The position numbers and the translations under genes are program-made. The notes beneath the pieces were generated by a model. It did no database searches. It was not told the origin of the DNA and saw nothing but the letters and a program-made list of their open reading frames with translations. A stretch of 60,304 bases of DNA, counting the filler, from Nemertoderma westbladi (taxonomy: Eukaryota; Animalia; Xenacoelomorpha), in the NCBI GenBank assembly GCA_032718475.1. It is 3 parts of 3 records of this genome, joined end to end, with 100 filler letters (N's around TTAATTAATTAA, not from the genome) between each part and the next. Parts side by side here need not be neighbours in the genome. Positions count along the whole stretch, not along the records: positions 1 to 24,379 come from JAUCBJ010006341.1; 2 more parts are not named here. The stretch is one strand, 5' to 3'. This document shows, piece by piece, positions 77 through 37,330 of the stretch (positions within the stretch are counted from its first letter, which is position 1; every line of letters begins with the position of its first letter).

Positions 77-3000
77 ATCTTGCTCTGCATTTATTTTACC
101 TAGACCTATCAATCTGAATATGGTATCCTAATGATTTTAAACTTTTAATTAAAAGTACTAAATAAAAGTGAGTTTCTAAATACCGGTAAGTTCCACTTAC
201 TTTCTCCATCATTACAGTAGTTGCAGGAAGTCTGACAGTAGTTGTACATGTACCGTGGGTTATTACCACACTCTCCATCAGCAGCCCATCCGGGGCAGTT
301 CACATCCAAGTCTGGTCTCTCGTTACAAACTGAAAGTAATCGATTATTTATCAAATTGGGACTGGAAATTATCTTTCGATTGTTTTAACATAATTTCCTA
401 ACTGTGAAAAATGTTTTGTACCTTGAAGGTCAAGACAAAACTAGCTAGTTGAGTAGCTTACTTAATTAGTAGGAGGCCTTGGTAGCTTACCAGTTCCATC
501 GTCGCATTTGTTACAGGTTGTCTGACACTGTTCGTACATGTAGTCGGGATTAGCGCCACATTCACCATCGGCGGCCCAGCCAGGACAATGGAAGTTATTG
601 TCGGGAGCTTCAACACAAGCTGAAAGAGAAATAGCGATATTACTTAATAGAAGAGTAGACGAAGCAGATCCAACAGCTGTTATGGACTTAAAATACATAA
701 ACCTCCCAAATTCAACAGTTTTAGCATAAAACACTTACGGCAGGGATCAGCTGGGGGTGCGTCGACACCATCTCCGCATTTATCGCAACTGGACTGGCAG
801 TAGTTGTACATGTAGGCTTTGTTAGCCGTACATTGCCCTTCGGCAGCCCACTCGGCGCAGTTATCATCGAGATCATCACGCTCCACGCAGACTGGGAAAT
901 ATATAAGTAAATAAAGTATAAAAGTAATTAATTAATTATTATATTAATAGACGGGGAATAATTTAGAAAAGTTATTAATTAATGTACTAAATAACAGTAA
1001 ACAGATACAGTAACATTACATCAACTATAATAACTAGCTAGTTGAGTAGCTACATAGCTAGTATGTTGCCTTGGTAACTTACCAGTTCCATCGTCACACT
1101 TGTTACAGGATGACTGACAGTAGGAGTACATGAACTGGGCGTTACTTCCACATTGTCCATCAGCAGCCCAACCTTCGCAATCGAAATGGGCATCCGACTC
1201 TTCGACGCAATCTATAACAGATTATTAATTTATTTATACTTTGATGGAATATAATCAATTATTATGATGTGATAACTATTTACATATATAAAGTTTGCAA
1301 CAAGTATAAATGTAAAATTTCGAAAAAAGGTTTCAGAATAAAAACTGCATATGAAAGTGATATGATGTCAAAAAAGTGTATATTTTTTGGAGGGGTTTAC
1401 AGGAATTTAAATTGCCAAATTGAGAGTCAAAATCCTTATTATTTCATATTCAACTTTTAAGATGTCTAGAAACCTTGTGCTGCCAAAACCTCAAATAGTA
1501 AATATAATATTACGTAATAAGGAACTATATACTAACCGGCGTATCCATCATCACATTTGTTGCAGCTCTTCTGGCAGTGGATATACATGTAATCGGGGTT
1601 GTTAAGGCACTCACCAACGGCGGCCCATCCAGCGCAGAGTACGCCGATATCAGCATCCTCTACACAAGCCGGAGGAAGAATCACTCCCGACAAGGCAAGG
1701 GCAGGTAGAACTGAAAAATAAAACCGGTTTTAACACACAATAATTGTGGTTAGCTAATTCCTGAAGACTGTTAAGTGAGGGAACATAACCTGAGGAAATA
1801 AAGTGAACATGCTTCATGCAGTTACTCGTTGCGGGGATTTGGTGTACGCGATTTAAGTATCAAACAGTCTATAAAGTACTGTGTGGTCGGTCCAAATAGG
1901 CAATGCGCAGTGTGAAAATTTTGAAACTTTGATCGAGATTTGATGAGTAAAACTATATGAATTTTTTAGTCTATTACATAACACGCACACAATTTCATTA
2001 AATTTGACAGAGCCGCTGCTGAGATATTAATATCATATCAGACGTTCGCACAGAAAGACACAAAGAAGGACAATGCTGATCTGGCCCTACTAAACAAACA
2101 TATTGTATGCTTATGCTCACAGACTTTGTTACACGCCCATTCAGCGATTATTAAAATCGATCGCGACCTATACTATGATTCGTGCCAGTGGAGTAAATGG
2201 CGTGCCCCTGAGGTCTTTAAAATTCCTGAGTGTTTGGAGCTCATTTCACACCATTATTGTGGACATGTATAGGACAAAGAGAGTCCCTCAAGAACTGAAA
2301 ACAAATAAGTTGGTACCAGCCCCAAAGAAGGTCAACCTAACAACCAGTGGATCTTTTCGCGGAATCTCGCTAATCTCGATTGCTGCAAAGCTATACAACA
2401 GAATTATATTAAATCCCATCAGGGATCCTGTTGAGAGACTGCGAACCAAAATGGGTTCCGTCAAGGTTGTGGAACCTTACTTTGCTGATGACTTAGAGGT
2501 ACTGTCAGAATCACTAGAGGGAGCCCAAAGGCGCCTCTTCTCATTGGTGTAGGTTGCTTCTAGTGTCGGTCTTTTTGTAAATTCCAAGAAGACCAAAATC
2601 ATGACAGTCAACCTAGACAGCCCTCAACAAATGTCTGATCGAAAGGGCATAAGCTCTAGGGACGGTTCGCTTGAGCACGTGGATGACTTCTGCTACAGAA
2701 GTCATCCACCATGGTGAGGTGAACACCTTCGGATACGGTAAGGGGAAGGCATGGGCTGGGTTAAATATAGTCTGTCCAGGATTTGGAAGTCCCATAGAAT
2801 AAAACGGAATCTTAAGGTTGGATTATGTATGGCTGTAGTAGTACCAGTACTCTTATATGGGAGTCCATGCTGGGCTCTGACTGTAGAGGATACCAAATCT
2901 CTGGGAATCCAGAATGCTGCGTCGGGTTCATTGTATCAAGTACAATGAACACATCCCCAATCAGACTCTAAACAACATTGGAGGTGTTCGATTAGTCTTC

Positions 3001-4334: not shown

Positions 4335-6500
4335 GTGGTACACCAGGCTGGGGTCGATAAATTGGCTACTGGAACAGAAGACAGAGAAGAAAGAAGAACC
4401 AACCTGTTGAAATGTAAAACGACACTAAAGATTGCTACAATGAACACACGCACGCTGAAAGCACATAGCAAACAGGGTGACATGGTTGCTCTGGCAATGG
4501 AATATAACATCGACATCATCTGCATCCAAGAAGATCGGATTTGTCATGAAGACACTGCCATGAAGTACAACGACATTGGAAATGGATGGACGTTAGTAAC
4601 AAGCTCAGCAGTAAGAAACTCGGCCAATGCATCAATTGGCGGAGTAGGAATTCTGCTAAGCCCATTTGCACTTAAGACCCTAAACAACATCGAATCTATA
4701 AATTCCAGGGTTATGATCGCAACATTTGATGGGAATCCCAAGACAACAGTTATATGTTGCTACAGTCCAACCAATGTCTCAGAGCCAGAACAAGCAGTCA
4801 AGTTTAATGAAGATCTGACTGGACTTATAAAGGACAATCCGAAACACAATGTTAAAGTCATTGCTGGTGACCTGAATGCGAAAATTGGCCCAGAAGACAT
4901 CAAGGGTTACACCTATAACACCAGTTCTAACAGAAATGGGTACTTACTTTTAGACCTAATGAAAGAATGTGAATTGATACCAACAAACAACACATTCGTA
5001 AAGAGTAAGGGGAAGCTATGGACCTTTCAATACCCTAATGGAACCAAAGCCAACTGGATTACATCCTTATAAACAAAAAGTGGAGAAACAGCATGATCAA
5101 CTGCGAGGCATACAGCTCGTTCAACCTAATTGGTTCGGACCACAGAATTGTGACTGCAGAGATCAGACTCAGTTTGAGAGCCAGCAAACCCAGGACAAGC
5201 AAGCAAATCAACTATGACTGGGAGAAACTCAGAACTGACAATGCAGTAAAGGATGCTTACACAGTAGAAGTTCAAAACCGCTTTGAAGCACTTCAGTCAA
5301 TGGATGAAGACCAGTCCACCGATTCAATATACCAGAATATAATAACAGCCCACAAGGAATCAGCTAAGAGGCATATCCCCCAGAAACCCAAACGAAAACA
5401 GTATGTGCCATGGCAAAACTCTGAGGTTACTTGTAAGAGAGAAGATCTTAAGATAGCCTACAAAGTTAAAACCGAACAACCAACAACAGAAAACATTAAC
5501 AAGATTGAGAAAGCTAAGGACGATCTTAAATTGGCCTACAACATCAGCCAGGAAAAGTACATACAGGATAAAATTGAAGCAATTACAACTGCTCACATAC
5601 AGCAACAATCAAGACTTACCTGGCAAACTGTAAATGAGGCATCTGGTCGGAAAAGTTGTGCAAAGGGGCGCCTCAAAGCCGATAGTCCCGAAGAACGTGT
5701 TGGGAAGTGGAAAGATCACTTCAGCAACTTGCTTGGGCAGCCACCAAACATCGAGGTCAGCCCTACCTATAGAAACAGGGGACTTCACACCTGCCGAACT
5801 CCAAAGAAGCATTACAAGCTGCTAAGGAGGTTGGATTGCATATAAATGCTACCAAGACCGAATTCATGACCTTTAATGTTGATGGAAACTTGACAACCAT
5901 TGACAATAATCAACTAAGGAAGGTTGACGACTTCAAGTACCTTGGATCATGGATAGAGAGTAGCAAAAAGGACATAGAAGTTAGGAAAGCAAAGGCTTGG
6001 GTAGCTCTATCAAAAATGGATACCATCTGGAAATCAGATCTCTCCAGGCACCTGAAGACTAAGTTCTTTCGAGCCACAGTGGAAAGTGTATTTTTATACG
6101 GGGGTGAGACCTGGACACTGACTAAATCACTTGAACAACGAATTGATGGTTGCTACACAAGACTACTAAGGGCAGCCCTAAACATCTGCTGGAGACAACA
6201 CATGACAAACGCCGAGCTTTATGGTACAATACCACCTGTATCAACCACCCTCCGTGAACGCAGATTAAGATTCAGTGGGCACTGCTGGCGAAGTAAAGAC
6301 GAGGTCATACCAGATCTACTTTTCTGGCAACCAACTCATGAAAAGCCTAGTCGTGGACGACCGGCCATAACATATATAGATCAACTTGAAAGGGATACTG
6401 AACTTGGGAGAAACGAAATTGCGACAACTATGGAGAATCGGGAAGCCTGGAAGGATCTCATTTCCACTGTCCGAGTTCGTTCGACCTAGTAGTAGTAGTA
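4335..6500 (+). mobile_element. RTE-like LINE with AP endonuclease, RT core deleted, intact 3' end
   Basis: APE motifs (IATMNTRTL, CIQE, YSPTN, GDLNAKIG, SDH) across frameshifted ORFs 4335-5072 and 5093-5845. Near 5820 it jumps to the post-catalytic region (FKYLGS, LYGGETW, RLRFSGHCWR, RGRP). No YADD motif. TAGTAGTAGTA tail at about 6488-6500. Confidence 0.9.
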
Positions 6501-6539
6501 TTATAAGCATGGCAGACTACCTGTCGTGCCCATGGGAGC

Positions 6540-7894: not shown

Positions 7895-10800
7895 TCATTG
7901 GTCGATATTTATAGATTGGCTTAAGTTATGAAGAGTGAGACGTAGACTCTTATTGGCTATATCTAGTGGTGTTTGTTCTTCCTTATTAACTGCCACAACG
8001 GAGGCTCCGGATTGGACCAGCGCTATAGCAACCTCATCTCTGTCCTCCTCGCACGCTAGATGTAGGGGAGTATCCCCACTGGTGTTACTCAACGAATGAT
8101 TGGCTAATCCCGTTGCTAAGAGTAACTTTACTATCTTGAGGTGCCCCTTAGAGGCGACCCTATGGAGGCATGTCGCACCGTAATTATCTGAAACATAAAA
8201 CATTTGATTATCCGCTAAGATTTCTAACACAAAATTTCTAACAAATTACATTTTCAATATTCACAGTATTGAGCAAAATAACCATAAACGACTACTCCGC
8301 CCAGATAGGGGGAAAACTGGAGGCAATACAAATTCATCCCTCTCCAGGGGAAATTGGACGCAAATAACAGATGATTACTGTACTCAGAAAAATAAAACTG
8401 TAACCTGTTCTATTGAGTTTAGTTTATTGTTTTGGTTAAAATAACGTGCCACTGTAACCTGCTCCTTTCCCTAAATTGAGAATTTTGAGGCGGGATATTA
8501 ATTCACCAAGGCGGGTTTTGCGTCGAGTCCCCCCCCCCCCCCCCCCCCCACCCCCTGTCTCACTCCACCACACTCCTTCGGTAGACAAACCTTGTATATT
8601 AATAGAAGCCTTGTGATTTAGAAGATCCACAACAATATCAGTGTGACCTTTACTGGCTGCGTAGTGCAAGGCCACCTGGCCCGTGTTGTTCTGGGAGTCT
8701 GGCAGAGATCCGTGAGCCAATAGGAGGCCGACAATATCTCGGTGCCCGCAAGATGCTGCGATATGCAGCGGAGTCCAGCCGGAATCATCGGGAAGATTAG
8801 CGTCGGAACCCGCTAGAAAACAAAGAAACAGCTACAAGATTCTAAAGTTAAATTTCTTACTCGTCGGCAAGTACTGTCCCAGTAAAACTAATTATCGCCC
8901 CTTTGGTACTCAAACAACTTTGTATTTGTAACAATAATTATTTTTAACTTTACAGTTTTCAGCACGGTCCAAATAGACCTTATTTATTAGTGATAATTAA
9001 TTAATTTTAGAGATAATTAATTGATTTTAGTGATAATTAATTGATTTTAGTGATAATTAATATATTTAGTGGAAACTGAATATTTTAGTGATTTCTATGG
9101 TGGCTCTGAAGGGCCATCGTATGTTTTTATTTTTTTCTTCATAACTTAAAAATAAGTTGCCCTGTAAAATTTTTTTGTTAAAAAAAAATGGTTATTTTTA
9201 GTCAGTCGATAAATCGTCGCATGGCATTTTAAGGCGCTAACTAGAGTTTATATTACAAAAAACAGTTATATATACCACCAGATAGCTGTCATCGATTGGT
9301 ACTACTTGGAATTGTAATAATAAATAATAATAAATTTAATTTTATTACATTTATCATTTTGAATAGGAATTCCAATAACAGAGTTAGCTCCTTTTAAACA
9401 GAACCTTTTAAGGGTTCCAAAAATTTTGAGTTAGTTCATTTCAAACGGAACCGTCAAACCGAATGGAAGGAGTTTGATAAAAACCCGAGTTAGCTCATTT
9501 TTAATGCCAAGCGACGAAATGACGGCCTTAATATAAAAAAAATTGGAATTTATTATTATGCGTTATACTTTATTAAACATCCATCACTCTTCTACAGTAT
9601 TTTTACATAGTTCATCACCACACCACTGACTCCCCTCACGTAAACTCCACGCAGTTGTTCTGTAGAGTTGAGTTGTCCTTGGTCATAATACTAAACACCT
9701 GCACATCAGTCTGCAAACAGTTTGTTGTCGTAATTCCTGAACTCCTATGGTAATATATTGGACGGATCCAAAAAGCGGATGTCCTTATTTCTCACGCGTG
9801 TTTGTTTGTTTGTTTGTCTGTTTGTTTGTACACACAACTTCATGCGCTTAATGTTGATGGAATTGGATGAAATTTTGATGATAGGTTCATTATCGGACCT
9901 AGTTGTGTATGCAAGGGACCTGTTGGTTGCATAGCAACAGTGAAATTAATTCTAGAATGACCGATCATAATCGTAGAATTCACTCAATCAAAATTCTGTC
10001 GACACCCCATAGGGAGCATCTATTGGACAGACTTTCTGCAAAATTTCGCTTTATTTCATTTAGAAATGTATGAGAAGATACATTTCTAACAAACAGTGTT
10101 TTTTTAACATAGACCCTACAATATTATACTAATTATAATATTATCATACTGGCCAGCCAATCCCAGAATATCGTTCCCTAGGCAACATCCTATTGGAGCT
10201 TCAGTGTGGATGTAATAATTGATGTGTGTAATTGAGAGTGCTGTCTGCTCCACATTGACAACTATTGGGTTCTCATTCGTTATTACTTATTACGATGCCC
10301 TGCTTATGCGCGTAATTCATGACAACAAACAATATAATAATATCTGTGTTGTACAGACGGTACTTTGCCCAATGTTTCGTTTTGCGTTTTTCGTTATTAG
10401 GCTTCCCTGCATGCATAGGCGCGTAATTTATTACAACAATAATATTGATAGCAATGGATCCGTCCATATTGCCAGCTCTCGCTGGCAAGCTTGTACTGAT
10501 AAAGGCTATCTGCCTCTATATCTGTATAATGCTACAGGCTGATCACTCAGTGATAGCAGTCACTCCAGTCTGTCAGTCAGTGATAGCTGGATAGATACAG
10601 AGATAGGTCTCAAGTTACAGTATTTCGAATTTTAAGTACGGTACCGTTATGGTGAAAGTGGAAATAGAATATTGCCAAGCCTGAGGTTACAAACCTCGGT
10701 TTGAGGAACTACGTCGCCGTTTATTGGCTGACGAACCACAAACCGAGGTGCAAGGGAGGACCGGCAGAACATCCTCATTCGAAGTAACTATCGACGGATG

Positions 10801-13800
10801 TTTGATCTACTCAAAGTTGGAAACAGGCAGATTCCCGAACATGGACCACGTGGTGGCGGCTGTTAAACACGTGGATGAGGGAAACCCACCGAGCCAGTGC
10901 GTGGGGCAGATCGGGACTAAGTGGTTTTAGTCAATATTCCCGTGTATTCGTACCTGTACTGTAGCCTATCGCCTTAGGCAACTGCTGCAACCTGCAACGC
11001 AACTGTGCAACATTATACTTTTCCAAGACAATAAGACTCCGAGGGACTGCGACTAGGAATTTCTGCAATGTTTTTCTATTTGTTTGTTACCACCGATGAC
11101 TGAATAACTCTGTCACCGGTCCAGCGCTGTTCCGGATCCGGACAATATAAGCCTAATCCAGTAGGCCTATTCGCGTTATCCAGTTATTGGTTATCGCCTT
11201 TCCATTCCGCGCGTATAAAATACAATCTGCAAACAGACCACCGGACAGCCGGAACTTGTTTAGTTGAAACTCAGGTTGTCACGGCCGAAATCTTTAATAT
11301 ATTTCGTAATACCAACCGATACCGGTAGGGGGGTATTGTATTACATGTAGGCCTATTTCATTCAACTAATGAAGCAGGGACTACTAATTCATTCTGATTT
11401 GGTCTGTACTGTAGGTACCGGTACATTATTATTCGAAGAGCACATAAACAACATTAATTAATAATTTGTGGTGACAATTAGCTAAATGAATGATAAATTA
11501 CAGGAGAGCGATAATCTAAACAATAAACAAATAGACAGACATTAATAAATGACTGTTAAAAAAAAGCTAATTGCTATTTGAGGTATAGCGTTTAATTATT
11601 TAGTAGAATACATATTTAAATTCATCAGGTAGTAAAACTTTATATTACCACAGTTCTAGATTATAAGCCTTCAATTACATTCTGTGCGCAGCGCTTTAGG
11701 GTGCAGTAAAATAGAAATAACATTTAATTAATGACAATTCTGGGAAATATTATTATTGTACTGTGAGGGTATATTTTTCTATTTTTGATGTAAACGTTCG
11801 TTGTTTGAAAATAAACAAAGTGGTAAATGCTAACTGCGCTATTCTCATATATCCTATAAAGTATGACGGTGAAAGTAGAAACAACAAAACAAGTTGGGAC
11901 TTTAACCCGATGGTTAATATTTGGATATTAGAGGTTTTCATTTTGGCCGTGGATTCATTACGTTGGTTATTTATTGTAATATTTAATGTATTTAATTTAT
12001 TACGGTGTTATATATCGTTAAATGTACATTTGATAAACGTATAAAGTTAAAAATATAATTTTACAATGAAAATAGAACGACCGCAACGCGCAACAACGTC
12101 ATTGTGTGTGGGGGTTTTCAGCTAAGTGGGATAGGAAGATACAAATAGCTAATCAACCTGGTTTATATGACGCCGATAGCAAGACCTCCATAGTTCACGA
12201 TAACCCACCGGCCGCCAATCATCATCAAGTGCCAATGTCCTTCAGATTATAAGTTTGAATTAAGAATAAGTATACTGTATATAAGTAATAAGTATATCCC
12301 CCCCACTCCCCATTCAGGTTTATAACTTTACAAATAAATAAATTATCTTTTATGACTTTTTTTCTTAAATATTTTATACCTAACAGAACTAACTACAGTA
12401 TATCACATCTATTATACACGTCCGTGGGGCGTCGCACAGCACGCGAACTTTGGCAAAAAATCAATTGATCTGGAGTCAAGAGTTCGAGAGGTATTTGCCC
12501 GTAACTTTCAAAAATATTGGAACCTTTTCTCTAGTATGCCCATACAAAATTTCGTTGAAAATGGTTAAAATCTTCAAAAAGTTATTTACGAATGAATTTT
12601 TCATTACAGACGGACAGACAGACAGACAAACGGACATGAAATTTGGCCCTATTTAATAATTATAATTGTGCTCGCCCTGACTCAGCGGCTCGCCCCAGTA
12701 GTACGATAGAGTGCACTTTGCATGATTGAATGGCGAGCGAGGCGAAGCGAGCAGATCAAGTTTTTCCACATTTTCGCTTATGAAACCAAAATCCATGACT
12801 TTTCAGTGCTTTTTACAAGAATTCCCTGACATTTATGTATCCTGGGTGAGTGTGCCTGGGGGAACGTCCCCCCTCGCTACGCCTCTGCTTGGGTAGGGAA
12901 CCGCAATATACAGTATGAATATAGGCCCAAATGCTACGCCGACCTCAGATAACCACAGCCGACAATGACAAATATGACACTGTATCATCATCATGTCCTC
13001 TTGTCTCTCGTTTTGGTTAGAATATAGTTTCGGTCATTATTTTATTTTACTTAAAGGATTTAACAATAACTAAGTACAGTATCCATAACTGACCGTAACA
13101 CTAAATATTATCACTAAAATATTGTTAGGCCCGGTACTAGTTGAATTGTGTTGGTTGTCGGTTTGATTGTGTCGCGATAAGTTCCATGGGGTGGTAAGAC
13201 CTGTCGGCTGTCACTCCAGGTTCCACCACGATATGCCACTAGGGGTGATAGGTAAAGGTTTGTAAAGGAGCCGTATATTAATAGAGGCAGCGTTCGGGGA
13301 ACCAAACCAACAAACGAAAATTAACGTGCAGGTTATAATAAAGAGTTATTACAATCAGAAAAAGAGTTACTTTCAGAGTGTAGTTTAAAGGATAGGCCGC
13401 TGCTACATCGTTAGATCCTGTAATTTTCAGTGAAACAAGCAGGTTACAATGACACATGTTATTCTAACGAAACAATAAACTAAACTCAAAAGCACATGCT
13501 ACAGCTAAATAAAAATTCAATTGCAACAAGATATAATACAATTCCTAATGACGCAGGACCTACATAAATGACGCGATACCAATTAAAGCTGCAGTGGGAC
13601 CTTACTGCGAAAGGAAGGGTATTTTTAGTGTAAAGAAAGATAATACAATTATTGGAAAATGAAGAAATTTAGTGGAAAGTGATCATGTGATGGATACAAA
13701 ATTATAAATACAGTAAGGTTCAAATATAATTTATTTTAGTGGAAGTCAAAAATATAAATAGTGGAGAATAATTAATTTTAGTGATACCGTAGTGTTAATA

Positions 13801-16800
13801 TTATTAGTGAAGGTGAAGGAAATACTGTATTTTGTGGACAAATGATTTAGTTTTTAGTGGGAAATAAATTTGTTTTGTTTAATAATATGAAGAAAAAATT
13901 AATAATGTATGTCAACTTAGGATGTCGCCTTTTTCGGCGTAGCTTTTACACCTGAAATAAGTCGTCAGTCGTCAGACATTTTGTGTATGCGTAATCGAAT
14001 CCCTGGCTTATTGGAGAAGAACAAGTTTTTTCATAATTATTGTTTTCAAAGTGATGGCCTACCTACCTGTTGTTGTAGGGTTGGTCGGTCTTGCTGCCAT
14101 GATCTTGTGCTAGTCTCACTCGCACTTGCCAATGAATAAATAGGCCTACGTACTGACTCATATTCCTGTATTCTGTCTGAGAGTGCATTATTTTGAATTT
14201 TAAACTGAATATTGATGCAGGCCTATTTCAGTATTTGGAATGTACAGATGTAATTGACTGTGGACTGTAATAAACTTTGGTAATTTTGTTATTAATATGT
14301 GGTACGAATCGCTAGTTTCGGGCGGTTTAATGGTACTATTCGCTGCGATTCCCGGATATACAGTTAAGTATCTCTCCCATCCGCAGCGCCGGGGAGCTGG
14401 GATATTATCCGGAAACTACAACTACAAACCTATGAAACATTTGTTCACACAGACTCAAGCGCACCTCGCCTGGCGGGAGTATAGAACATTCGGCAAATCT
14501 GAACTTTGGTAATCCGATTGAACAGAAAACTGAGACCAGGAGACTTACCCATTCGATAAATTGATAACATTCATGTTAAACTGAGTTTATTCTGTTATTT
14601 CTGTATTTCCTGATTTCAGATTTTGTTTTAGTACCGGTACGTAGTTCTGTAGTTGTTAGGTTAGGTTAGACGGATAGGGTTTTGATATTTATTTTACACA
14701 GTTCTAGTTTCTAGTTAACCGCGATAATGCGAAGACGAGGGATTGGCGTGGCCGCGGTTAGTAAGAAAAAACTCGAGACTGCGAAATTCAAGGAGAAAGG
14801 AGTTGAAATCGCCGAGGATGAGTTGTCAACAATGTCGCAGAGTTTCGAGAAATTCCGCTCGCATCTCGAGACCTTCGCGCAGAAACACCGCAGCGAGATA
14901 AAGAAGAACGCGGAGTTCCGAACCCACTTCCAACGGATGTGCAGTGCGACGGGCGTCGATCCGTTGGCCAGCAGTAAAGGTTTCTGGTCCGAGTTGCTAG
15001 GTGTCGGAGACTTTTACTACGAGTTGGCCGTACAGATTGTAGAAGTCTGTCTGGCTACGCGGCCCACTAACGGCGGACTCATTAGTCTGGCGGAGTTGCG
15101 GGGCCTGTTGGCACGAGGTAATCGCGCCGAGGTCAGCCCCGACGATGTTCTCCGTGCCATCGGGAAGCTCAAGGTTCTGGGTAGCGGGTTCGCGGTCATA
15201 CAGACTGGCAGCGAGGCCCTGGTACAGTCAGTCCCCGGGGAGTTGAGCATGGACCATACCACGGTGCTGCACATGGCGCAGGAGACGGGAGGCTTCACTA
15301 CAGCCGGAGCGGTGAGGGATAAGTTGGGATGGGAGCCGGGTAGGGTCGATAATGTTCTGGAGTTTATGGTAAAGGAAGGTATGGTTTGGGTTGACAAGCC
15401 AGATGGTAAGGAGACCAAGTATTGGTTCCCGGGTATGTTCCATTGCATATAAGAACGTTCCATCGATCTTTACGTAATTTACCGGATAATTATATTAGTT
15501 TTAGTTAATTACAATAAATTATAGGTTCTGTTTGAGATTTTATAGTGAGATATTTAGTATAATAGTATCCGTAATATATATATATATAATGTCATATTGG
15601 ACATTTCATATAGAACTAAGTTTTATTTTTAAAACGCTAGGCTATTTACTCAAGCAGAGCCGGATTAATTGATACTCTGATAGTAGATCAGTGATATAGA
15701 AATGTTTAGATTCACATAATTATTAGCACTCACTCATTGCGATTGAGAACGAGAAGATTATTGCGTCTCGCTCTATTTACGTTTTTCCGGGCCAGACACG
15801 GGATTTCGTTTCATTTACATGCGGTCTGCTGATCGGTTGATTTTCCCCGGTAACAAGACCTTGTCTTTATTTATATACTGTACAGCTATTAGCTGATATT
15901 AGTACGTTTAAGCATTTATTATCAGATATGAGAACTATGTTTAATTATTTCAACGCACAAAGACCAAATATGATGGAAAAAACCCACTACTCGACTGACT
16001 AATTTATATACAGTGTTACTAAGCCACTAATTGACTTAATATTTATGAATATTTAAAACCATAATATTATAACTAGCGGTGGTAGCTGGCTGGTAGGTCC
16101 ACTCCTGTACTGCTTAGCAACAGCCTCAAATTTGCACTAATCTAAAATTAATAATAATTGTTGCTTTAAGATGTTTTATTGCAGCAGCTTGGTCAGTGGT
16201 GACATTCCTGGGCTTCCAATTAGGAAGCCTTGGTTCGATCCCTAGATGGGGCAGCACTGTTTAGGCACGGGACAGTGCTTTAAATGCTGCAGCCTAGCCC
16301 AACCCTGGCTTTCATCCTTCAGTGGTCGATAAATGGAAGCCAAGGCAACTTGGGAAACAGAGTGGAAGGATTTACTGTGGAAGATCACCCATGGCGGTGA
16401 ACAGGCATTCCTTTGCTTAACGGGCCTAAAAGATTCTCCCATTTATTAAGTTTTATTGTCACAAAATCAAATTACCATTACTCCCCGTTATGGAACCCGG
16501 ACTGATACCCAGTGTATCCCACTTCCCTTACTTGCTACGGAAACCCCCTTTAAGTGTATACGTCTAATATTGGAAGCATTATTATGAGCACGGAGATGAT
16601 TTAATTACTTTAAAACTGTTCTTTACAAGATACATTTCAATATGGCATGAAGTAAAAAAGTCTACAAATATAATATTATTGTCTAAGAATAATAAGTAGC
16701 GTGAGTCGTAGTGTAACCTGCACCAGCAATTTTATCTAATAATATCATTCTCTATGCTTTTCGTAGACATTTAAAACATTTTTTCGTTCATTACATACTT

Positions 16801-19800
16801 TATTTGGCTCTGGAAAATTTATATGTTATAAAATTTCAAATCGCTTTATCGCAATCTTAATTAAATATAATAGAATAGACACAAAATATGTACCACATAA
16901 AGTTAAATTATTTACCTTCTTACTAATTAATTGTAAAATTGATAATATTTGGGAAGCACATTTGTTGCCTTGTGTAGAGCTAAATAGACCCATCAATAAT
17001 GGGTTTATTGGGTCACCCACCTCACACTGGATTCATACCAGATATCCGTCGTAACTGTTCGAAAATAAAGAAAGTAATGAGAGTGTGTGGACCAATCCGC
17101 GCCCAGTTGGGTACGAAACCTTTATATAAACCAAACAGACCCTCGGATTGTACTGTCTTTACGAAACAATGAAACCCTGACTTATAGACCACGGCGGAGT
17201 GCGTACCCTTACGTTGCTTCATATAGCGCGTCTTAACTACGTCAATAGGACTGGTTGTTAAGGCGCACACCAAACCGGCCCACATGCTACAGACTACATG
17301 GAGGTAGGGGCCCTCGGTCATTAACCCGGCGTTGAGTAGGGTATGTTTCGTGTGGTCGTACGTCGGAATCTGCGTAGCGGTTAGAACGGCGGCCCGCTGC
17401 ACGGTGGGACCGATTCCTCGGTATAGAGAACGGATCCCGCCTTCCCGACTGTAGATCACGTAGAACGCATGGAAGGCGTTACGGTACGGTAACGGGGGGT
17501 CCCGCAACCCGTGGCTCTGGTAGCGAACCTTTACCAGGTCTGTGGGAGTCGCAATGCTACTACCGATAGCCCCCGAGGTGGCCCCGGCTACGAGTTTCTG
17601 CCACAACGGAGTGTGCGACACATCCTTGGCGCCTAAGAACCGTTTCAACGGCTCGTACGCACCGAGACGTATAGTAGTGTAGGAACTCTCTCTCATTAAG
17701 GAAGGCAGTAGACCTTTATAGAGGCCGGCCACACCCTCCTCGGCGACAATTCTACCGGCCCCGCGTAACATCCCCCGGTAGTACCGCTCTCCCATCGCGG
17801 TACGCACCCCGCCCTCCCGTTGCGCCGAAAGCTCGTTGTCCAACTGCATCCGAACTTTTATTACGTCGATCGGATTGGTTATGCACGCGGCGCACATCGC
17901 CGATGTTCCAGCCAATAGGAAGCGAGTAGCATCGCTGTCGCGTTGTTTGGGTGGCAACGGTTGTGAGGTACTGGTTGGGTCCGCAGAACTGCTGCCCATA
18001 TCCACTTGTATTTATTTATTTATTATTATTATATTGTGTACTACTGCTATTACTACTACTACTAGGTCGAGCGAACTCTGACAGTGGAAATTAGATCCTT
18101 CCAGGCTTCCCGATTTTCCATAGTTGTCACTTTTGTGTAAGGCAGATAAACTGGACATCATTTATCAACCTGTGACCAATGCATACTATCCAAGCCCATG
18201 CCATCGAGTTAACTGGGGGCGGTAACTGGGGGCAAGATTTTCTTAAGCTTTATAACAGAGATTTCCTTACGTTATTGCAATTTATAAATTAATTGGAGTT
18301 GAGCTGTTAATGCAACTGTAAATAAAGATGTAATATTATGGTTTTGTTCCGAAATGGAAAAAATGACAAAGCGCGTCACCGGGGGTTGAACCAGCGCTAT
18401 ACGTACTTTTCAGCCTATCAGGCCTCATCAGCAGCGCTAACCAGGTCAGCCACTTGCCCCTGACAATCATTCTCCCACCTAATCCATTTCCATTGAACAG
18501 GCAGTCTTAAGTTGCATATCTAGGAGAGTGAATGTCAGGGGTAAGTGGCTAGCTACTGATGAGGCCTGAGCGCTGGTTCAACCACCGGTGACGCGCTTTC
18601 TCATCATTTCCATTTCTGAACAAAACCATAATATAATATAATAACAGTTGCATTAACAGCTCAACTCCAATTCATTTATAAATTGTAATAACATAAGGAA
18701 ATCTCTGTTATAAAGCTTAAGAAAATCTTGCCCCCAGTTACCGCCCCCAGTTAACTCGATGGCATGGCCTTCGAGCCATGCCAAGGCTACGCCTTGCCGG
18801 TGACCCAGAATTTGCTTGCCATCAATGATAAGCTGATGGATGTCAGCTGATTGGTAGGGTTCGCACCACGTGCGTGCGGGCTTTATAGACTGTTAAATGT
18901 ATACCCGATACATCCCTACTAATCCTACTGGACATTAATTATAACTGTAAACAAAAAGTACTTAGTAATCATATTACCGGTGTCTGTATAATATAAGCAC
19001 GACATGCATGTTTACAAGGCGTCCATTAATTAATACTGATATTTATTATACTTAAGGATGCCTCACCTAACTACATTACTACAGTGTATGATGCCTAGTT
19101 TATTTTAATTGCTAGACCAATTCAAAGTTATGTATTAATTAACAATTAATTATACATATGACATAAGCTGACATACAATAATACAATACACCTATTAAAT
19201 GTGTATAAGATAGTCGGTAAATAATATAACAAACAAAACGGAGGAAAAATTATAAGTGAACATTGTCACACTAGGAAGAGGAACAACCTCATTCTTATCT
19301 TACAAACACCATTATGTTGTTACCATCCAATCTATGTACGCTATGCACACAGCACATTAAGTATTACATACGTCATACATACTATATGCTATCCCCATTT
19401 ATTTGTGAGTGAAGGATAACGTTAATCTCTGCTTAATGTTTATAATGGTAGGTAAGAGACACACGTTCGTAGGGCCTTCACGCAGCACGAGGGTCATTTA
19501 TGAGATTATTCTATCACAAAATCGGTAATTAAGAAATTTAACCAAACCAATAAATCATAGCGGAGGGTGGTGGTGTGGATGCATTGCCGTATTTACAGTA
19601 ATGTATAATATTTACATAGTGCACTGCTATATTTAATATTATTACAATGTTAAGCGGGTGGATTTTTTGGAATAAATTTTTTTGTTAAGGGTGGATTTTT
19701 AGCCAATTTGTTCAGTAGTTTTATTGACAATGATATTCTGAACAAGTGTACCAAATGTCGACTCATTTCAGTAAAAGTTCGCGGAGAAATAGCCTTTTTG

Positions 19801-19951
19801 TCAGAAAAAGACATCCTGCGAAAAAAGTGTTTAAAGTTTAAAACTAACTAACTAAGATGAAATCACCATTAAATTCGGTACCCCCCCCCCCCCCCCCCCC
19901 CCCCCCCCCGATCATAAAAATAAATATAATAATGGGGTACTCGTGCTAACC

Positions 19952-19990
<39 letters not shown>

Positions 19991-20544
19991 ACCCCCCATC
20001 TTAATCTAATTAGAAATCCTTTACAAATTGTTTTTAAAAAACAAAACTAATATAAGGGTGCATAGTAAAATCAATTAGGCACGAATTCTGTCTAACTTAC
20101 AAAATTTCTTAAATATCAAAATAAACTACCTACGTAATATGTAGTAAAAAGATCAAATCAATATAATTAATGTGTCTCCATAATTACGATTATATATTCT
20201 GGTCTGCGACATGTTGGTTCATGTTAAATTATTTAAATATAAAGATATGGGATTGGGATACTACGGTGGTAATTTTGGGCCACTTCGTTCTATGTATTTA
20301 TGTACAGAGGTTCATTGAGATTTTCCTTTCCAGTTTTCCGTGAATACGAAAAGCACAAAGTTGACTATTAGTTCTGCTTACCTTTAAGTAAAACCTCCGC
20401 GCATTCATGGCGTCCCTTAGACGCTGCCCAATGTAATGCTATTCGTCCATTACTGTCAACATCATTACAAACAACAGAATTACTCTTGATAATGTCCTTT
20501 AATTCAACTAATTTTCCATCATTTGCCAACTGAAATACGTCCAT
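7895..20544 (-). CDS. PSMD10: Gankyrin, 26S proteasome non-ATPase regulatory subunit 10; 3 coding exons, 225 aa
   Basis: Exons 20382-20544 ([19 protein letters not shown]...[22 protein letters not shown]), 8591-8812 ([16 protein letters not shown]...[10 protein letters not shown]) and 7895-8187 ([20 protein letters not shown]...[17 protein letters not shown]...NKEEQTPL). Both introns are phase-1 GT-AG and join in frame (163+222+293=678 nt). Motif order matches gankyrin. Confidence 0.92.
8306..8555. repeat. Dispersed ~250-bp repeat (MITE-like)
   Basis: Shares GACGCAAATAACAG...GGGATATTAATTC...TTTGCGTC blocks with 44150-44386. A reversed partial copy lies at about 36810-36960 and a fragment at about 46640-46740. 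Confidence 0.6.
10649..10930 (+). CDS. Rdx-family selenoprotein (SelW2/MIEN1-like), 93 aa, Sec at codon 12
   Basis: ATG at 10649 reads [14 protein letters not shown](10682-10684)[13 protein letters not shown]...[25 protein letters not shown]. This gives a CxxU motif plus the FEV and SKL..G.FP signatures of the Rdx family. The ORF track missed the N-terminus. Intronless. Confidence 0.93.
11849..11928 (+). promoter_or_regulatory. Eukaryotic SECIS element (type 2)
   Basis: ATATCC...ATGAC(11863)-GGTGAAAGT-AG-AAA-CAAC[AAAACAA]GTTG-GG-ACTTTAACC-CGAT(11908-11911)...GGATAT. It has the UGAN/NGAN core, helix II with one mismatch, unpaired AAA, an apical mini-stem and helix I. Confidence 0.85.
12405..12700 (+). 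repeat. Possible Helitron/Helentron-type non-autonomous repeat
   Basis: Contains a (CAGA)n microsatellite and a GC-rich end GGCTCGCCCCA that recurs in reverse at about 50037 and 56229. Family assignment is tentative. Confidence 0.3.
14297..14512 (+). CDS. NDUFA1: NADH dehydrogenase 1 alpha subcomplex subunit 1 (MWFE)-like, intronless
   Basis: 71 aa beginning MWYE, then one hydrophobic helix ending in IPG, and an L..RE.R motif near the C-terminus. The C-terminus is divergent. Confidence 0.75.
   Translation: MWYESLVSGGLMVLFAAIPGYTVKYLSHPQRRGAGILSGNYNYKPMKHLFTQTQAHLAWREYRTFGKSELW
14727..15452 (+). CDS. SNF8: ESCRT-II subunit SNF8/Vps22, intronless
   Basis: [67 protein letters not shown]. Confidence 0.97.
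16181..16450 (+). mobile_element. tRNA-derived SINE with Meta-domain-like core
   Basis: A box (TGGTCAGTGG), B box (GGTTCGATCC) and core CCCAACCCTGGCTTTCATCCTTCAGTGGTCGATAAATG resembling the MetaSINE domain. Its 3' part holds one copy of the 63-bp unit amplified at 37331-41490. Confidence 0.8.
17022..17999 (-). CDS. Mitochondrial carrier (SLC25; UCP/2-oxoglutarate-carrier-like, ucpB-type), intronless
   Basis: Three Px[DE]xxK[RT] signatures ([24 protein letters not shown]), GLYKG boxes and [10 protein letters not shown]. First ATG at 17999. Confidence 0.95.
   Translation of the reverse strand: MGSSSADPTSTSQPLPPKQRDSDATRFLLAGTSAMCAACITNPIDVIKVRMQLDNELSAQREGGVRTAMGERYYRGMLRGAGRIVAEEGVAGLYKGLLPSLMRESSYTTIRLGAYEPLKRFLGAKDVSHTPLWQKLVAGATSGAIGSSIATPTDLVKVRYQSHGLRDPPLPYRNAFHAFYVIYSREGGIRSLYRGIGPTVQRAAVLTATQIPTYDHTKHTLLNAGLMTEGPYLHVVCSMWAGLVCALTTSPIDVVKTRYMKQRKGTHSAVVYKSGFHCFVKTVQSEGLFGLYKGFVPNWARIGPHTLITFFIFEQLRRISGMNPV
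18196..18767. mobile_element. ~570-bp foldback element whose arms contain a tRNA-like/hammerhead module
   Basis: CCATGCCATCGAGTTAACTGGGGGCGGTAACTGGGGG... at the left is mirrored at the right, with arms of about 230-270 bp. Related fragments lie at about 42655-42695 and 44585-44675. Confidence 0.85.
18393..18438 (-). ncRNA. Minimal type I hammerhead ribozyme motif between Pol III A- and B-box-like sequences
   Basis: Minus strand reads AGCGCTG-CTGATGA-GGCCT(GAT)AGGCT-GAAA-AGTACG-TA-TAGCGCT: stem I 7 bp, stem II 5 bp, and a near-palindromic stem III with one mismatch. Flanked by TGGCTGACCTGG and GGTTCAACCCC. Confidence 0.75.
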
Positions 20545-21725
20545 TTCACCCTGATAAAAAGACCGTGAAATATGTTAGGAGTTAGCAATCATTAACATAA
20601 AATAAAGTAGCACTTTATAGAAAAACAGACTCTGACTGGCCGTGCGATGAGACAAGTATTGTACGCCTTAGAAGTTCTATCCTATCAAGTCCCGCAAAAT
20701 TTTGTGTGATTGCATGATTTCGAAAGCTGAGCTTGTTTGGTACAGGAATTACATTAGTCCGCCGCGAAGTCGGCGAGCTTAGCATGCGGGTCCCGTTATG
20801 CCCATCGAAGATTACTGGTCGGTATGTCTGTCTGTCTGCTAATGGTTGGAAGCTAATAAATACCTGTAGTTTACCGCAAGAGGGGTGAAATGGGAAATGT
20901 CTGAAAGGGGAAAAAACGCGTTATCTAGTCAACATATTATATCTTTATATAATACGCCCGATTTATCTATACAAGATAGTAGCTACTACATATCAAGTAC
21001 CGGTATCGGCGGTATGCATGAGGTTGCCTAGGCTTTTCTCATTAAAATATATGTTCCCTACCGCGAAATGTGTTTGATGCAAATAACAATGATTATTTAA
21101 CCCTATGAATCGCCCATTTGATTGCGGCCTAATGGAGCAGGAGGTTGAAATTAAAATAGAAATAGCTATCCGTCCTTAATACCAACAGAGCAAACTTACC
21201 TAGCACGACTGCACGATTTATTTGGCTCTTGGTTTACAAAAAAAACGCAGTACAGTAGTAAATAACAGTTCAACTCAAGAGTTAACACAACAACCTATTG
21301 GCGGTACCAATGCCAGATATAATCAAAATAATACTACAGTACAGCAGTATACAATACTGCAGTAGGTCCGTACGTCAGTACACACTTGCTCACTTCTTGT
21401 AAACAATATTATAACCACTCATATTATCTGGTATTGTATTACATTTTGAATTTCCCTCTCACACATATTTTACCTTGCAAATTGTGATGTTATTTGCCAG
21501 TAGTGTAAAGGCCTTCTTGCGATTTGGTAGTGGGACTTCTGGACTTGAGCGTCAACTGCAGTCGTGTTTTCGTGCAGTTAGATAGTGTGACAATCCGAGC
21601 TAGTTTTGTTAGTTTAATATTTGTTACACACACTGAAGCGCTTAGGCCTACATGCCGATCTTACAGCGTTTGTCAGTAGATAGATATATTTTTTTATACA
21701 TTATGTAAAAACAATAACAAATATA

Positions 21726-22591
21726 TGGGGCGCCGTTTGGGCCAAAAATAAAAAAAACATATTATATTAAAAAGTTATAATGGTATGTTTTTTATCTTGC
21801 CGTTTGGGCCAAAAGTTGTAATGGTATGTTTTTTTATCTTGCCGTTTGGGCCAAAAATAGCTGAGAGGGAAATTTGAATTATCACTTTCTATATACTGTA
21901 TTTAGCAATTGCAATTATCATCATACCTGTGAGCCTGTCTGCCTATACATGATTGTGGATTGTATTTACACACGGTGTACCGTATCGCTGTAGGAGTGGA
22001 CTTTAGGCTTACCTCCCGCTGTATGGCTGTATGGGCCTTGGCCTACCAGTACTCATATACTGTCACTGGGTAATGCTGTAATGCGTTAGGCTGTTAGGTA
22101 CAAATCAGTATACTTTAGGCCCTGTAGCATTACACATTGTGCTTGTGATAGGCCTACATCTTGTGGTCCACAATACTGCAATACTGAGGCATTAATGTCA
22201 GAATGTCATTTGTACCTAACAGCCTAACGCTACATTACAGCATTACGCAGTGACAGTATATGAGTACCGGTAGGCCAAGGCCCATACAGCGGGAGGTAAG
22301 CCTAAAGTCCACTCCTCCAGCGATACGGTACCGTGCTGCCGTGTGTAAATACAATCCACAATCATGTATAGGCAGACAGGCTCACAGGTATGATGATAAT
22401 TGCAATTGCTATAAATACAGTATATAGAAAGTGATAATTCAAATTTCCCTCTCAGCTATTTTTGGCCCAAACGGCAAGATAAAAAAACATACCATTACAA
22501 CTTTTGGCCCAAACGGCAAGATAAAAAAACATACCATTATAACTTTTTAATATAATATGTTTTTTTTATTTTTGGCCCAAACGGCGCCCCA
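21726..22591. mobile_element. ~870-bp palindromic MITE
   Basis: TGGGGCGCCGTTTGGGCCAAAAAT...ATTTTTGGCCCAAACGGCGCCCCA. Arms of about 390 bp are nearly identical. Flanked by TA on both sides. Confidence 0.85.
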
Positions 22592-22906
22592 TACAAATAC
22601 ACCAAACAATGTATATTGTCCAACATAACATATGGGATTACCCCTAAAGCTTTGCAGCTTATGTTTCTTGGTTATAAATCTAATATTACACTAACACTAC
22701 GCTAACCTAAAACAAATATAAAAGGTAATTACACTAAATACGTACAACTTTACCAACAGCGAGACAGCTCCAACTCAACGATAAAGATGTAACTACAGTA
22801 TGTACACACATAGGACTATACGTTGAAATTGACGTTGACAGCTCATTGGAGCAATGAGCTTTATACGTTGTGCTTTATCACTGATCGAGCAGTAATTATT
22901 AATTTA

Positions 22907-25511: not shown

Positions 25512-25652
25512 CGTACCGACCAATCTTAATCCCTCTTTTTAGCGTTAAAAAAACAGATAGTGTATTGCGTAAATTTACACTCAGTATTGCGTAGCGTGGA
25601 GGCATTGCGAAATTTACTATCGTGTTGGTATGTAAAAAAAATACATGTTGAG

Positions 25653-26534
25653 ATGGCGTTAAGATTGAATCCACCTGAGTTTAAGAAAGACTCAAAGAGT
25701 TATGAGCGTTATAAACGAGAACTATTGGCTTGGCGAGAAATCACTGATCTTCCTAAATCTAAACAGGGTATAGCTATTGCATTATCCCTTCCAGAGGAAG
25801 GGGATTCTAAGATTAGAGAGAAAGTATTCGATGAGATTTCCATTGAAGATTTAAAGGGCGAGGATGGACGAGGTGAACTTATAAAGTACCTAGATGAGAA
25901 GTTAGGTAAAGACGATTTAGAAGATTGTCTCGAAAAGTTTGAGGACTTCGAAGATTTCCATCGAGACGAGATCTGCAATATATCAGAATATGTTTCAATG
26001 TTTGATCAGAAATATCAGCGAATAAAGAGACTTGGTATGAGTCTCCCTCCAGAAATTTTGGCCTTTAAATTATTAAGGAGATCTGCCATTTCTAAAGAAG
26101 AAAAAATGTTAGTACTCACCGGAATGGATTATTCTCAGAAGGTGACATTATATGATCAAGCACAAGAGTCTTTAAAAAAATTCATTAGCAAGGGAACATC
26201 CGGATTACAAAGTGCGGCCATTAAACTTGAACCAACCTTTCTTGCCCAAAATGAAGAGGCACTAGCGGCTGCTGGTTACTATCATTCCTCTAGGAGTAGC
26301 CCTAATTGGCAACGTGGTGGTGGTGGTGGTGGTAGAGTTCGGAGGGACGTTGGACATTTTGATTCCACAAGGCGGTATGTTCCTCCCAGTTATAAGAAAG
26401 ATGCTGGTAATTTGGGTTGTTCAGGTCACCGAATTAGTGCAGTTCGAGCCCAAGACAGGAAAGTGAATCCCGCTGGTACTGATGGAAAAAACCTCTTACT
26501 TGTCGCTGCTGTGGTTCATTTCGACATCTTTTAA
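25653..26534 (+). CDS. Copia gag
   Basis: ATG at 25653 (MALRLNPPEF...YERYKRELLAW...). The zinc knuckle lies in the -1 frame after the A-run at 26486-26491. Confidence 0.8.
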   Translation: MALRLNPPEFKKDSKSYERYKRELLAWREITDLPKSKQGIAIALSLPEEGDSKIREKVFDEISIEDLKGEDGRGELIKYLDEKLGKDDLEDCLEKFEDFEDFHRDEICNISEYVSMFDQKYQRIKRLGMSLPPEILAFKLLRRSAISKEEKMLVLTGMDYSQKVTLYDQAQESLKKFISKGTSGLQSAAIKLEPTFLAQNEEALAAAGYYHSSRSSPNWQRGGGGGGRVRRDVGHFDSTRRYVPPSYKKDAGNLGCSGHRISAVRAQDRKVNPAGTDGKNLLLVAAVVHFDIF

Positions 26535-28319: not shown

Positions 28320-28440
<121 letters not shown>

Positions 28441-29317
28441 AACTGGAATCAACAATTGCGGTCTTCAGGAAATGATCTCGACAATTGTGCCATCTAACAA
28501 AGACACAAATGTAGACAATAACTCAGACAATCTAAAGTCCAAACAAAAATCCACAAATAACGTGAACTCCTTGCCACATTCAGCACAATGTATTAAATTT
28601 CTTGATCATAACACACAGCAATGGTTTACAGCGACTGTTATGGGTCGTGCTGGTAAAGCATCAGGAAAGTATAGGGATTGGTTTAACGTGGAGGAGTCTA
28701 ATGGAGTTCAGAGGTGCATCGACTTTGGTTCTAACCCTTGGATCCAAGGTGATGCGACTAATGAAGTAAATTTAGTTCTCATTCCCAGAAAAGAGCAGTC
28801 TTCTCCTGAGTGCCAACAAGCAAAATTAGTGGAGCTACAAAAATTGAGAGATTTTGAAGTCTATCAAGAGCTACCTTTCAACGGACAACCATGCATATCG
28901 ACGCAGTGGGTTCTATGGCATAAGGGAACAGAGATTCGTGCTCGTCTAGTTGCCAGAGGATTTGAAGAGCAAATTGAGGTAGCTACAGACTCACCTACAG
29001 TTGCAAAATGTACACTTCGCACATTTTTGGCTATCGTTTCCAGTAAAAAATGGGTTCTAAAAACAACTGACATAAAATCTGCCTTTCTCCAAGGTGAATC
29101 CCTAGTACGTGATGTCTTCCTCCATCCACCCCAGGAGGCTGATGCGCCGTTGGGATATATTTGGCGATTAAATAAGTGCTTGTATGGTTTGAATGACGCA
29201 GCTCGTCAGTTCTACAATAGTGTGGTAGAAGAGATGTTGACCCTCGGTTGCAGCCAATCTCCATTAGACCCTGCTCTATTTTATTTTAGAGAGGATGGCA
29301 ATCTTTGCGGTATTCTA

Positions 29318-36962: not shown

Positions 36963-37330
36963 TTTGGATATATCTGTGTGGAGTTTATAAAGCCACTGGA
37001 CACAGCCACTGCCACAACCAAATAATATAATTAAAGGAGCAGTTATTTCGATTCAACAAAGTCAAGTAATAAACCTAAATAAGTATTGAAAGACCGATTA
37101 ATGAAATCGAGAGAACTAAAAAATTTCAAGAGTATACTGTTTGTGTAATAAAAGCAATAAACTGAAATCCACAACTTAATTTAATATAATAGATATCGGA
37201 TTATATTGAAACAGTAATTTAAACTGAAATTCCTTGGGTAGAATTTCAGTTTTCAGCACTCGTGTTGACATCTAGCCCAACCCAAGCTGTCATCCTTAAA
37301 TAGTCGATAAATTGTAACCAAGGTGACTTT

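What the first reader, a model, noticed from the sequence alone, without database searches (positions are those of the whole stretch)
8813..20381. Four complete housekeeping genes nested in one 11.6-kb intron of PSMD10
Seen: gankyrin exon 1 (20382-20544) splices in frame to exon 2 (8591-8812) with no contig linker between them. The intron holds the SelW2-like, NDUFA1-like and SNF8 genes (antisense) and a mitochondrial carrier (same sense as the host). Established: nested genes are usually single and antisense. Four broadly expressed nested genes, one co-oriented, is exceptional. Inference: this needs a way to avoid transcriptional interference and premature polyadenylation, and co-processing of the carrier mRNA from the host intron is possible.
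Basis: partly seen in the sequence, partly recalled or inferred. Interest (0 to 1): 0.82.

Follow-up and report, generated by a model that had tools for sequence, protein, structure and literature searches.

The report
Four intronless genes inside gankyrin intron
In an invertebrate animal, the proteasome-chaperone gene PSMD10 splices across an 11.6-kb intron that, as assembled here, holds four intact intron-free genes of housekeeping type, which likely use their own promoters; nesting several genes in one intron is already known in animals, and the odd details are the housekeeping cargo and a likely two-gene message for NDUFA1 and SNF8.

Summary
Three coding exons give a 225-aa gankyrin in register with human PSMD10. 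Contigs of two runs that behave as RNA (two samples, two studies) join 20382 to 8812 with GT-AG ends.

The intron holds four intact single-exon genes:
- a MIEN1/SelW2-like selenoprotein (weak SECIS candidate)
- a likely NDUFA1
- SNF8
- a co-oriented ucpB-like carrier

No DNA contig spans the intron. Three DNA runs leave the window at 19527, and right of 20004 the window carries a different allele, so intron length and order rest on this assembly.

The claim 'exceptional' is overstated. Multi-gene nests are common in Drosophila (up to 13 genes) and a ctenophore. About a quarter of nested genes are co-oriented, and in flies most of those are intronless. Nothing supports co-processing of the carrier. 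Still unusual: the conserved housekeeping cargo, and NDUFA1-like plus SNF8 215 nt apart with no canonical poly(A) signal between them, likely one bicistronic mRNA. The scan had not noted this DNA before.

The parts
21200..21332 (-).
   Evidence: X4 records 27-32 and loose ends at 20552 and 21199; intron 20551-21199 has GTAAGT...TATCAG ends
20382..20550 (-). PSMD10 first coding exon (ATG at 20544; 54 codons + 1 nt); two alleles seen
   Evidence: X4 record 27 has the window's letters, record 28 has 6 differences
8813..20381 (-). Host intron, 11,569 nt as assembled, phase 1, GT-AG
   Evidence: joint 8812>20382 in X4 and X5; ends
8591..8812 (-). PSMD10 second coding exon (222 nt, ankyrin repeats)
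7895..8187 (-). PSMD10 last coding exon to the stop codon
10649..10930 (+). Single-exon Rdx-family selenoprotein gene, MIEN1/SelW2-like, CxxU motif, 93 aa
   Evidence: best PDB match C17orf37/MIEN1 E 5e-14; contigs of X4 and X5 cover it unspliced
11853..11923 (+). SECIS-like element in the likely 3' UTR of the selenoprotein gene (AUGA, AAA and GA in place; weak)
   Evidence: Rfam SECIS_1 18.8 bits, below the gathering score of 35, E 2.2; fold z-score -1.1; inside X4 record 19, 11346-12088
14297..14512 (+). Single-exon, likely NDUFA1 (MWFE) ORF, 71 aa
   Evidence: Pfam MWFE E 0.0011; Atlas top three clusters all NDUFA1 at 0.93, 212-213 of 256 features; no PDB hit; only 3 short matches in long proteins among representatives
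14727..15452 (+). Single-exon SNF8/VPS22 gene, 241 aa, 215 nt behind the NDUFA1-like stop
   Evidence: X4 record 20 (14118-15181) spans both ORFs unbroken; X5 record 27 starts at 14554
17022..17999 (-). Single-exon ucpB-like SLC25 carrier gene, 325 aa, same strand as the host
   Evidence: X5 contigs cover 16897-17073 and 17084-17422
18048..18128 (-). 3' tail of a LINE, about 50 nt upstream of the carrier's ATG
   Evidence: 94% match over 81 nt to 6423-6503, the end of an element with endonuclease and RT remnants
18189..18774 (.). Palindromic high-copy repeat (MITE-like) upstream of the carrier
   Evidence: inverted arms of 136 nt at 95%; very high summed depth in DNA runs; the Rfam miRNA hits here are far below gathering scores
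19527..19568 (.). Junction not supported by other DNA: structural polymorphism or local assembly error, inside a repeat fragment
   Evidence: X1, X2 and X3 contigs match to 19527 and continue about 240 nt unlike the window; X3 record 19 matches 19568-19772 and has 180 nt more unlike it
19881..19997 (.). Two poly-C tracts; right of them the window differs about 2-2.5% from the DNA runs

Best explanation
PSMD10 is spliced across this 11.6-kb intron, and the four intact intron-free genes inside it are likely ordinary nested genes with their own promoters, likely arranged as three units: the selenoprotein, a probable NDUFA1-SNF8 two-gene message, and the co-oriented carrier. Shown: the splice joints, the intact single-exon ORFs, and contigs of RNA-like runs over all four genes. 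Inferred: the genes reached this intron as processed (retroposed) copies or as already intronless genes, in a repeat-rich genome where compact genes and long introns make nesting likely. The host polymerase would read through them as it reads through the other AATAAA sites of the intron, probably under U1 snRNP protection (recalled knowledge, not tested). The co-oriented gene is likely tolerated because its coding part has no introns whose splice sites could compete. SNF8 would be translated from the shared message by leaky scanning or reinitiation (inferred).
For: Joints in X4 and X5, absent from X1 and X3, so no processed DNA copy explains them. Register with human gankyrin. Intact ORFs at 55-68% identity to animal orthologues. 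X1 contigs match the nested block and exon 2 side with 2 differences in 7,642 nt over six pieces at even depth 20-29, so the genes belong to this organism and have no near-identical second copy among the long pieces shown. X4 record 26 crosses the long joint with 72 nt in the upper exon, and record 29 crosses the upstream joint with 45 nt, each as one unbroken contig, as expected if those donors have one main partner. For the two-gene message: no AATAAA or ATTAAA between 14269 and 15513 on the + strand (one GATAAA variant at 14555); X4 record 20 spans both ORFs; X5 record 27 begins 42 nt after the first stop. Intronless coding genes are common in this window also outside the intron: Rab-family 35481-36095 and zinc-dehydrogenase/quinone-reductase-like 45171-46208. 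The pattern matches published rules. LINE and LTR remnants lie nearby.
Against: No listed contig spans the intron. No 5' ends, strand or tissue data were obtained, so own promoters and breadth of expression are not shown. A contig across two genes does not prove one transcript, and X5 has a gap at 14457-14553. No poly(A) tail or target-site duplication was noticed by eye, and no parent gene could be sought, so retroposition is unproven. Nested genes in flies and mammals tend to be tissue-specific, unlike these families.
Confidence: 0.7

Rival explanations
1. The four-gene block is misplaced by the assembly, or lies here only in some haplotypes: joins at repeats near 9094 and 19527 put it between two exons that are really closer together.
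For: X1, X2 and X3 contigs diverge from the window at 19527 inside a repeat fragment. X3 record 19 enters at 19568 from other sequence. The window changes from near-identical to about 2.5% divergent across 19527-20004.
Against: It needs two misjoins that still leave the exons in the right order and strand. One misjoin at 19527 would only change the intron's length. The window's right-hand allele is real and spliced in X4 (records 27, 30), and X1 and X2 show one version only, which fits allelic variation with indels (insertions of 26, 6, 2 and 13 nt are seen nearby). There are no Ns in the interval.
Confidence: 0.12
2. The nested genes are processed from longer precursors by spliced-leader trans-splicing, operon-style, with NDUFA1-like and SNF8 as an operon pair.
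For: The 215-nt spacing is under the 250-nt cut-off used to call operons in a chaetognath (PMC12460157, passages). Acceptor-like sites lie at 14652, 14701 and 14714. Unlaid 5' pieces of 17 nt (X5 record 26) and 23 nt (X4 record 18) exist.
Against: X4 record 20 and X5 record 27 both run through those acceptor-like sites unbroken. The unlaid pieces do not start at an AG boundary, and one lies in a repeat. The letters of those pieces were not shown, so no leader could be identified.
Confidence: 0.1
3. The carrier mRNA shares the PSMD10 promoter, by alternative splicing from a host exon or by release from the host intron.
For: Same strand, and only about 2.4 kb below the host donor. The 5' half of the carrier could not be seen in any laid run, so its start is unknown.
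Against: Contigs across both host donors are unbroken in X4 (records 26, 29), and no joint into 18000-18200 is among the 15 shown of 207. An intron-derived RNA would need a cap to be translated (recalled knowledge). Five out-of-frame ATGs lie in the 200 nt above the carrier's start.
Confidence: 0.08

Closest known systems
Complex nested genes of Drosophila (PMC5174743, passages; PMC3814207, passages)
   Same: Several genes in one host, about 71% antisense, co-oriented ones mostly single-exon, host broadly expressed.
   Different: Fly internal genes are fast-evolving, narrow and often testis-biased. Here they are conserved core genes. The paper's count of 13 is per host gene, not per intron.
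Nested intronic genes of the ctenophore Hormiphora californensis (PMC8527503, passages and section 38)
   Same: 2357 nested genes in 1654 hosts, four in one host figured, many parallel to the host, often flanked by transposons.
   Different: That genome uses spliced leaders widely; none was detected here. The passages read do not say whether the nested genes are housekeeping or intronless.
Mammalian nested pairs (PMC8467205, passages); NF1 intron holding OMG, EVI2A and EVI2B (recalled, no call)
   Same: About three quarters antisense; three genes in one intron are known.
   Different: The NF1 genes are all antisense and tissue-restricted (recalled). Most mammalian nests are simple pairs.
Bicistronic animal mRNAs with a small upstream protein, such as SNURF-SNRPN, MIEF1 with its upstream microprotein and ASDURF-ASNSD1 (all recalled, no call)
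   Same: A short conserved ORF ahead of an unrelated main ORF on what is likely one transcript.
   Different: An NDUFA1-SNF8 pair was not found in print (one search, 0 papers holding 3 of 4 terms), and the single transcript is not proven here.

Membership tests
Nested intronic genes | Host exons on both sides are spliced together in mature RNA | tested here: met
   joint 8812>20382 with GT-AG ends in X4 and X5, not in X1 or X3
Nested intronic genes | Internal genes lie wholly between those exons in genomic DNA | tested here: inconclusive
   true in the window with no Ns; no other DNA contig spans the interval, and the junction at 19527-19568 is not supported
Nested intronic genes | Internal genes are intact and transcribed | tested here: met
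   intact ORFs; contigs of RNA-like runs over all four, the carrier only over 16897-17422 in X5
PSMD10/gankyrin | About 226-aa ankyrin-repeat protein collinear with gankyrin | tested here: met
   225 aa; first and last coding exons match human gankyrin at the same offset; no reciprocal-best or tree test was run
Retrogenes | Loss of introns relative to orthologues | tested here: inconclusive
   all four coding regions are single-exon; that animal orthologues have introns is recalled, not tested
Retrogenes | Parent gene elsewhere, poly(A) remnant or target-site duplication | not testable with these tools
   no whole genome is held; no tail noticed by eye
Selenoprotein (Rdx family, SelW2/MIEN1-like) | In-frame UGA in a CxxU motif plus a SECIS in the 3' UTR | tested here: inconclusive
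   CxxU met; SECIS candidate below Rfam's cut-off
NDUFA1 (MWFE) | About 70-aa protein matching PF15879 | tested here: inconclusive
   19.7 bits against a cut-off of 27; Atlas 0.93, ten of ten best family hits agree; no PDB hit
Spliced-leader operon | Leader added at an acceptor ahead of the downstream gene | tested here: inconclusive
   contigs run unbroken through the acceptor-like sites; contigs cannot show 5' ends or rare forms
Bicistronic mRNA | Single molecules carrying both ORFs | not testable with these tools
   only assembled contigs were available; one spans both ORFs

The most novel reading that the evidence does not exclude
This lineage has replaced many core housekeeping genes with intron-free, retroposed copies that now sit packed inside the repeat-swollen introns of other essential genes, some on shared two-gene messages (NDUFA1-SNF8) without trans-splicing. 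That would be a genome where constitutive genes nest in constitutive genes as a rule, against the pattern in flies and mammals, and a natural test of whether transcriptional interference really limits nesting.
Probability: 0.25. Interest if true: 0.65.

Novelty: new member of a known kind. Interest (0 to 1): 0.33.

Why it matters
As one locus it is a dense but ordinary example of nested genes, and a warning for annotation: one essential gene hides four others. It matters more if it is typical of the genome. Work in flies and mammals holds that interference drives nested genes to narrow expression, and a genome with many housekeeping-in-housekeeping nests would test that directly. A bicistronic message joining a complex I subunit and an ESCRT-II subunit would also be a new pair.

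Tried and rejected
Runs. No RNA holder is listed on record. X4 and X5 are treated as RNA only because of their GT-AG joints.

Holes. 16473-17873 has almost no cover in X1, X3 and X4, 19564-19661 has none in X1 and X2, and X4 has none over 18780-19171 or 20054-20347. A filter drops records, so these prove nothing and were not used.

Paralogue idea. That the window's upper exon is a duplicate of the true one was rejected as unlikely: X1 and X2 show only one version at single-copy depth, and X4 shows both as a bubble.

'Degenerate second SelW copy' at 11864. Rejected: only a 14-nt match. The site is the SECIS candidate. My strict SECIS pattern found 0 hits.

miRNA hits at 18328-18639 are a palindromic repeat.

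Synteny. 80 metagenome loci with SNF8 relatives, none above 60% identity, so no close relative; their flanks were not examined. No exact match for 7 of 7 window proteins. No whole genome is held, so no genome-wide count and no parent search.

Lineage. A 48-row carrier tree placed the window in no supported group. Papers on Xenoturbella (PMC11521371, passages) and a chaetognath (PMC12460157, passages) were read as guesses and gave nothing on nesting.

Other nests in the window. The vWA/CLCA-like exons at 46716-47329 (label recalled; no matching Pfam hit) end in a stop before the dehydrogenase gene, so that gene is not nested in them.

The bacterial promoter scan is irrelevant to an animal.

Literature on this locus. 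Searches found no description of it. The Nemertoderma and Xenoturbella genome papers have 0 occurrences of 'nested' in the main text; their supplements were not read and could bear on exon counts.
Full report
The host gene. On the minus strand three exons (20382-20544, 8591-8812, 7895-8187) join to 678 nt and 225 residues with no internal stop, and both introns have GT-AG ends. The first and last match human gankyrin residues 10-60 and 138-222 at the same offset of seven. Exon 2 is ankyrin repeat, but gankyrin was not among the 60 of 297 rows shown for it. There is no N between 8813 and 20381.

The splice is real. Eight public runs were listed, none on record as RNA; five were laid. In one search, one contig each of X4 and X5 (two samples, two studies) skips exactly 8813-20381 and 8188-8590 with CT..AC ends. 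X1 and X3 show neither joint. X4 also joins 20550 to a further exon from 21200 to at least 21332, across an intron 20551-21199 with GTAAGT and TATCAG ends.

The cargo. (1) 10649-10930 (+): 93 aa, Rdx family, CxxU, closest solved relative MIEN1/C17orf37. A SECIS-like element at 11853-11923 lies inside covered sequence but scores 18.8 bits against a cut-off of 35 and folds no better than shuffles. (2) 14297-14512 (+): 71 aa, likely NDUFA1. The Pfam hit is below cut-off and the Atlas gives NDUFA1 clusters at 0.93; the PDB search found nothing and the representatives search only three short matches in long proteins. (3) 14727-15452 (+): SNF8, up to about 60% identical to animal orthologues. (4) 17022-17999 (-): ucpB-like carrier, up to 68%. 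All four coding regions are uninterrupted. Contigs of X4 and X5 cover genes 1-3; only X5 covers part of gene 4. Depth cannot rank the genes, and breadth of expression was not measured. Between the genes lie repeats, including a LINE tail about 50 nt above the carrier's ATG and a 586-nt palindrome.

What is not confirmed. No listed contig spans the intron. X1 matches six pieces between 7600 and 19527 with 2 differences in 7,642 nt but differs at 21 places in 20004-20844 and at 18 places plus 47 gap letters in 20833-21700; X2 and X3 behave alike. The window's letters in both upper exons are real, because X4 holds them with no difference beside a second allele (records 27 and 30 against 28 and 31). 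The contigs that cross the long joint carry the other allele's letter or letters (1 difference in 72 nt in X4, 7 in 168 nt in X5); four of the seven are silent. X1, X2 and X3 all match to 19527 and then continue about 240 nt in sequence that does not return within 18780-21700. One X3 contig enters at 19568 from 180 nt of other sequence. The simplest reading is indel polymorphism or a haplotype switch at repeats, which changes the intron's length but not the nesting. Removing the block needs two misjoins that keep the exons in order; I put that at 0.12.

NDUFA1-like and SNF8. The stop of the first is 215 nt from the start of the second. The + strand has no AATAAA or ATTAAA between 14269 and 15513, only a GATAAA at 14555. 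X4 record 20 covers 14118-15181 in one piece, and X5 record 27 begins at 14554 and runs through three acceptor-like sites unspliced. This points to one message for both, or to overlapping ends. Contigs cannot prove it, and X5 has a gap at 14457-14553.

How it likely works. The host polymerase crosses 30 AATAAA sites on its own strand. That is about twice a Markov expectation of 13-15, but the density (2.6 per kb) is like other AT-rich stretches of the window (1.7-6.0 per kb). Read-through of the carrier's signal is thus the ordinary long-intron problem, usually solved by U1 snRNP (recalled). The co-oriented gene has no coding introns, the state favoured for same-strand nesting in flies (PMC3814207, passages). 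Contigs across both host donors are unbroken, which gives no sign of a shared-exon isoform, though rare forms are dropped and the carrier's 5' half was not visible. Own promoters are the default inference. Origin by retroposition is likely but unproven: RT-bearing elements are nearby and other conserved genes in the window are also single-exon, but no parent could be sought.

Lineage and background. The carrier tree was unresolved. An earlier unchecked note on this genome reports a match to a Nemertoderma transcript (e1-10585389), another says acoel, and several describe giant repeat-filled introns; I did not test these. If that lead is right, published gene models for that species average 1.5 to 3.3 exons, and a 4-kb-N50 assembly still held 76.8% of BUSCO genes (PMC10565955, sections 12 and 17). 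That fits many compact core genes, though fragmentation also lowers exon counts. Compact genes plus long introns make nests like this one expected.

Comparison. In Drosophila 461 of 833 nested pairs are in complex nests, up to 13 genes per host (PMC5174743, passages). In human 296 of 452 are simple and 76 of those are co-oriented (PMC8467205, passages). In Hormiphora 2357 genes nest in 1654 hosts, many parallel (PMC8527503, section 38). Number and orientation here are within known patterns. The conserved housekeeping cargo is atypical, since internal genes are usually narrow. Ten paper searches found no account of this locus or of an NDUFA1-SNF8 message, and the scan's own notes held no look-alike.

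Verdict. A real, RNA-supported multi-gene nest, a new member of a known kind, with DNA continuity still to be proven and one extra lead (the two-gene message). Interest 0.33.

Noticed in passing
window 14118-15578 (+): NDUFA1-like ORF and SNF8 lie 215 nt apart with no canonical poly(A) signal between them and one contig across both: a likely bicistronic mRNA.
   Followed up: partly
window 20004-21700: A locally divergent allele block (about 2-2.5% substitutions plus indels) covers the PSMD10 upper exons, while the adjoining 12 kb is almost invariant against the same runs; three amino-acid differences in the first coding exon.
   Followed up: partly
window 35481-36095 (+), 45171-46208 (+), 48047-49528 (-): More single-exon coding genes: a Rab GTPase (Rab18-like by recall), a zinc-dehydrogenase/quinone-reductase-like gene, and a 493-aa membrane protein with no Pfam hit that looks like an amino-acid permease (recalled).
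   Followed up: partly
window 148-1729 (-): At least five small exons, each with one ShK-like domain, of a gene that runs off the window's left end.
   Followed up: partly
window 37327-41494 (+): A 4-kb satellite of about 63-nt units with long open frames; one unit-like piece also lies at 16350-16414 inside the PSMD10 intron.
   Followed up: no
window 25530-33032 (+): LTR retrotransposon with integrase before RT (copia-type order), interrupted between about 29347 and 32250.
   Followed up: no
window 21724-22593 and 18189-18774: Two near-perfect palindromic elements of 870 and 586 nt, MITE-like; the first lies just upstream of the PSMD10 non-coding exon.
   Followed up: no
window 46716-47329 (-): Last two exons of a vWA/CLCA-like gene (label recalled, no matching Pfam hit), cut by the contig linker at 47330.
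   Followed up: partly
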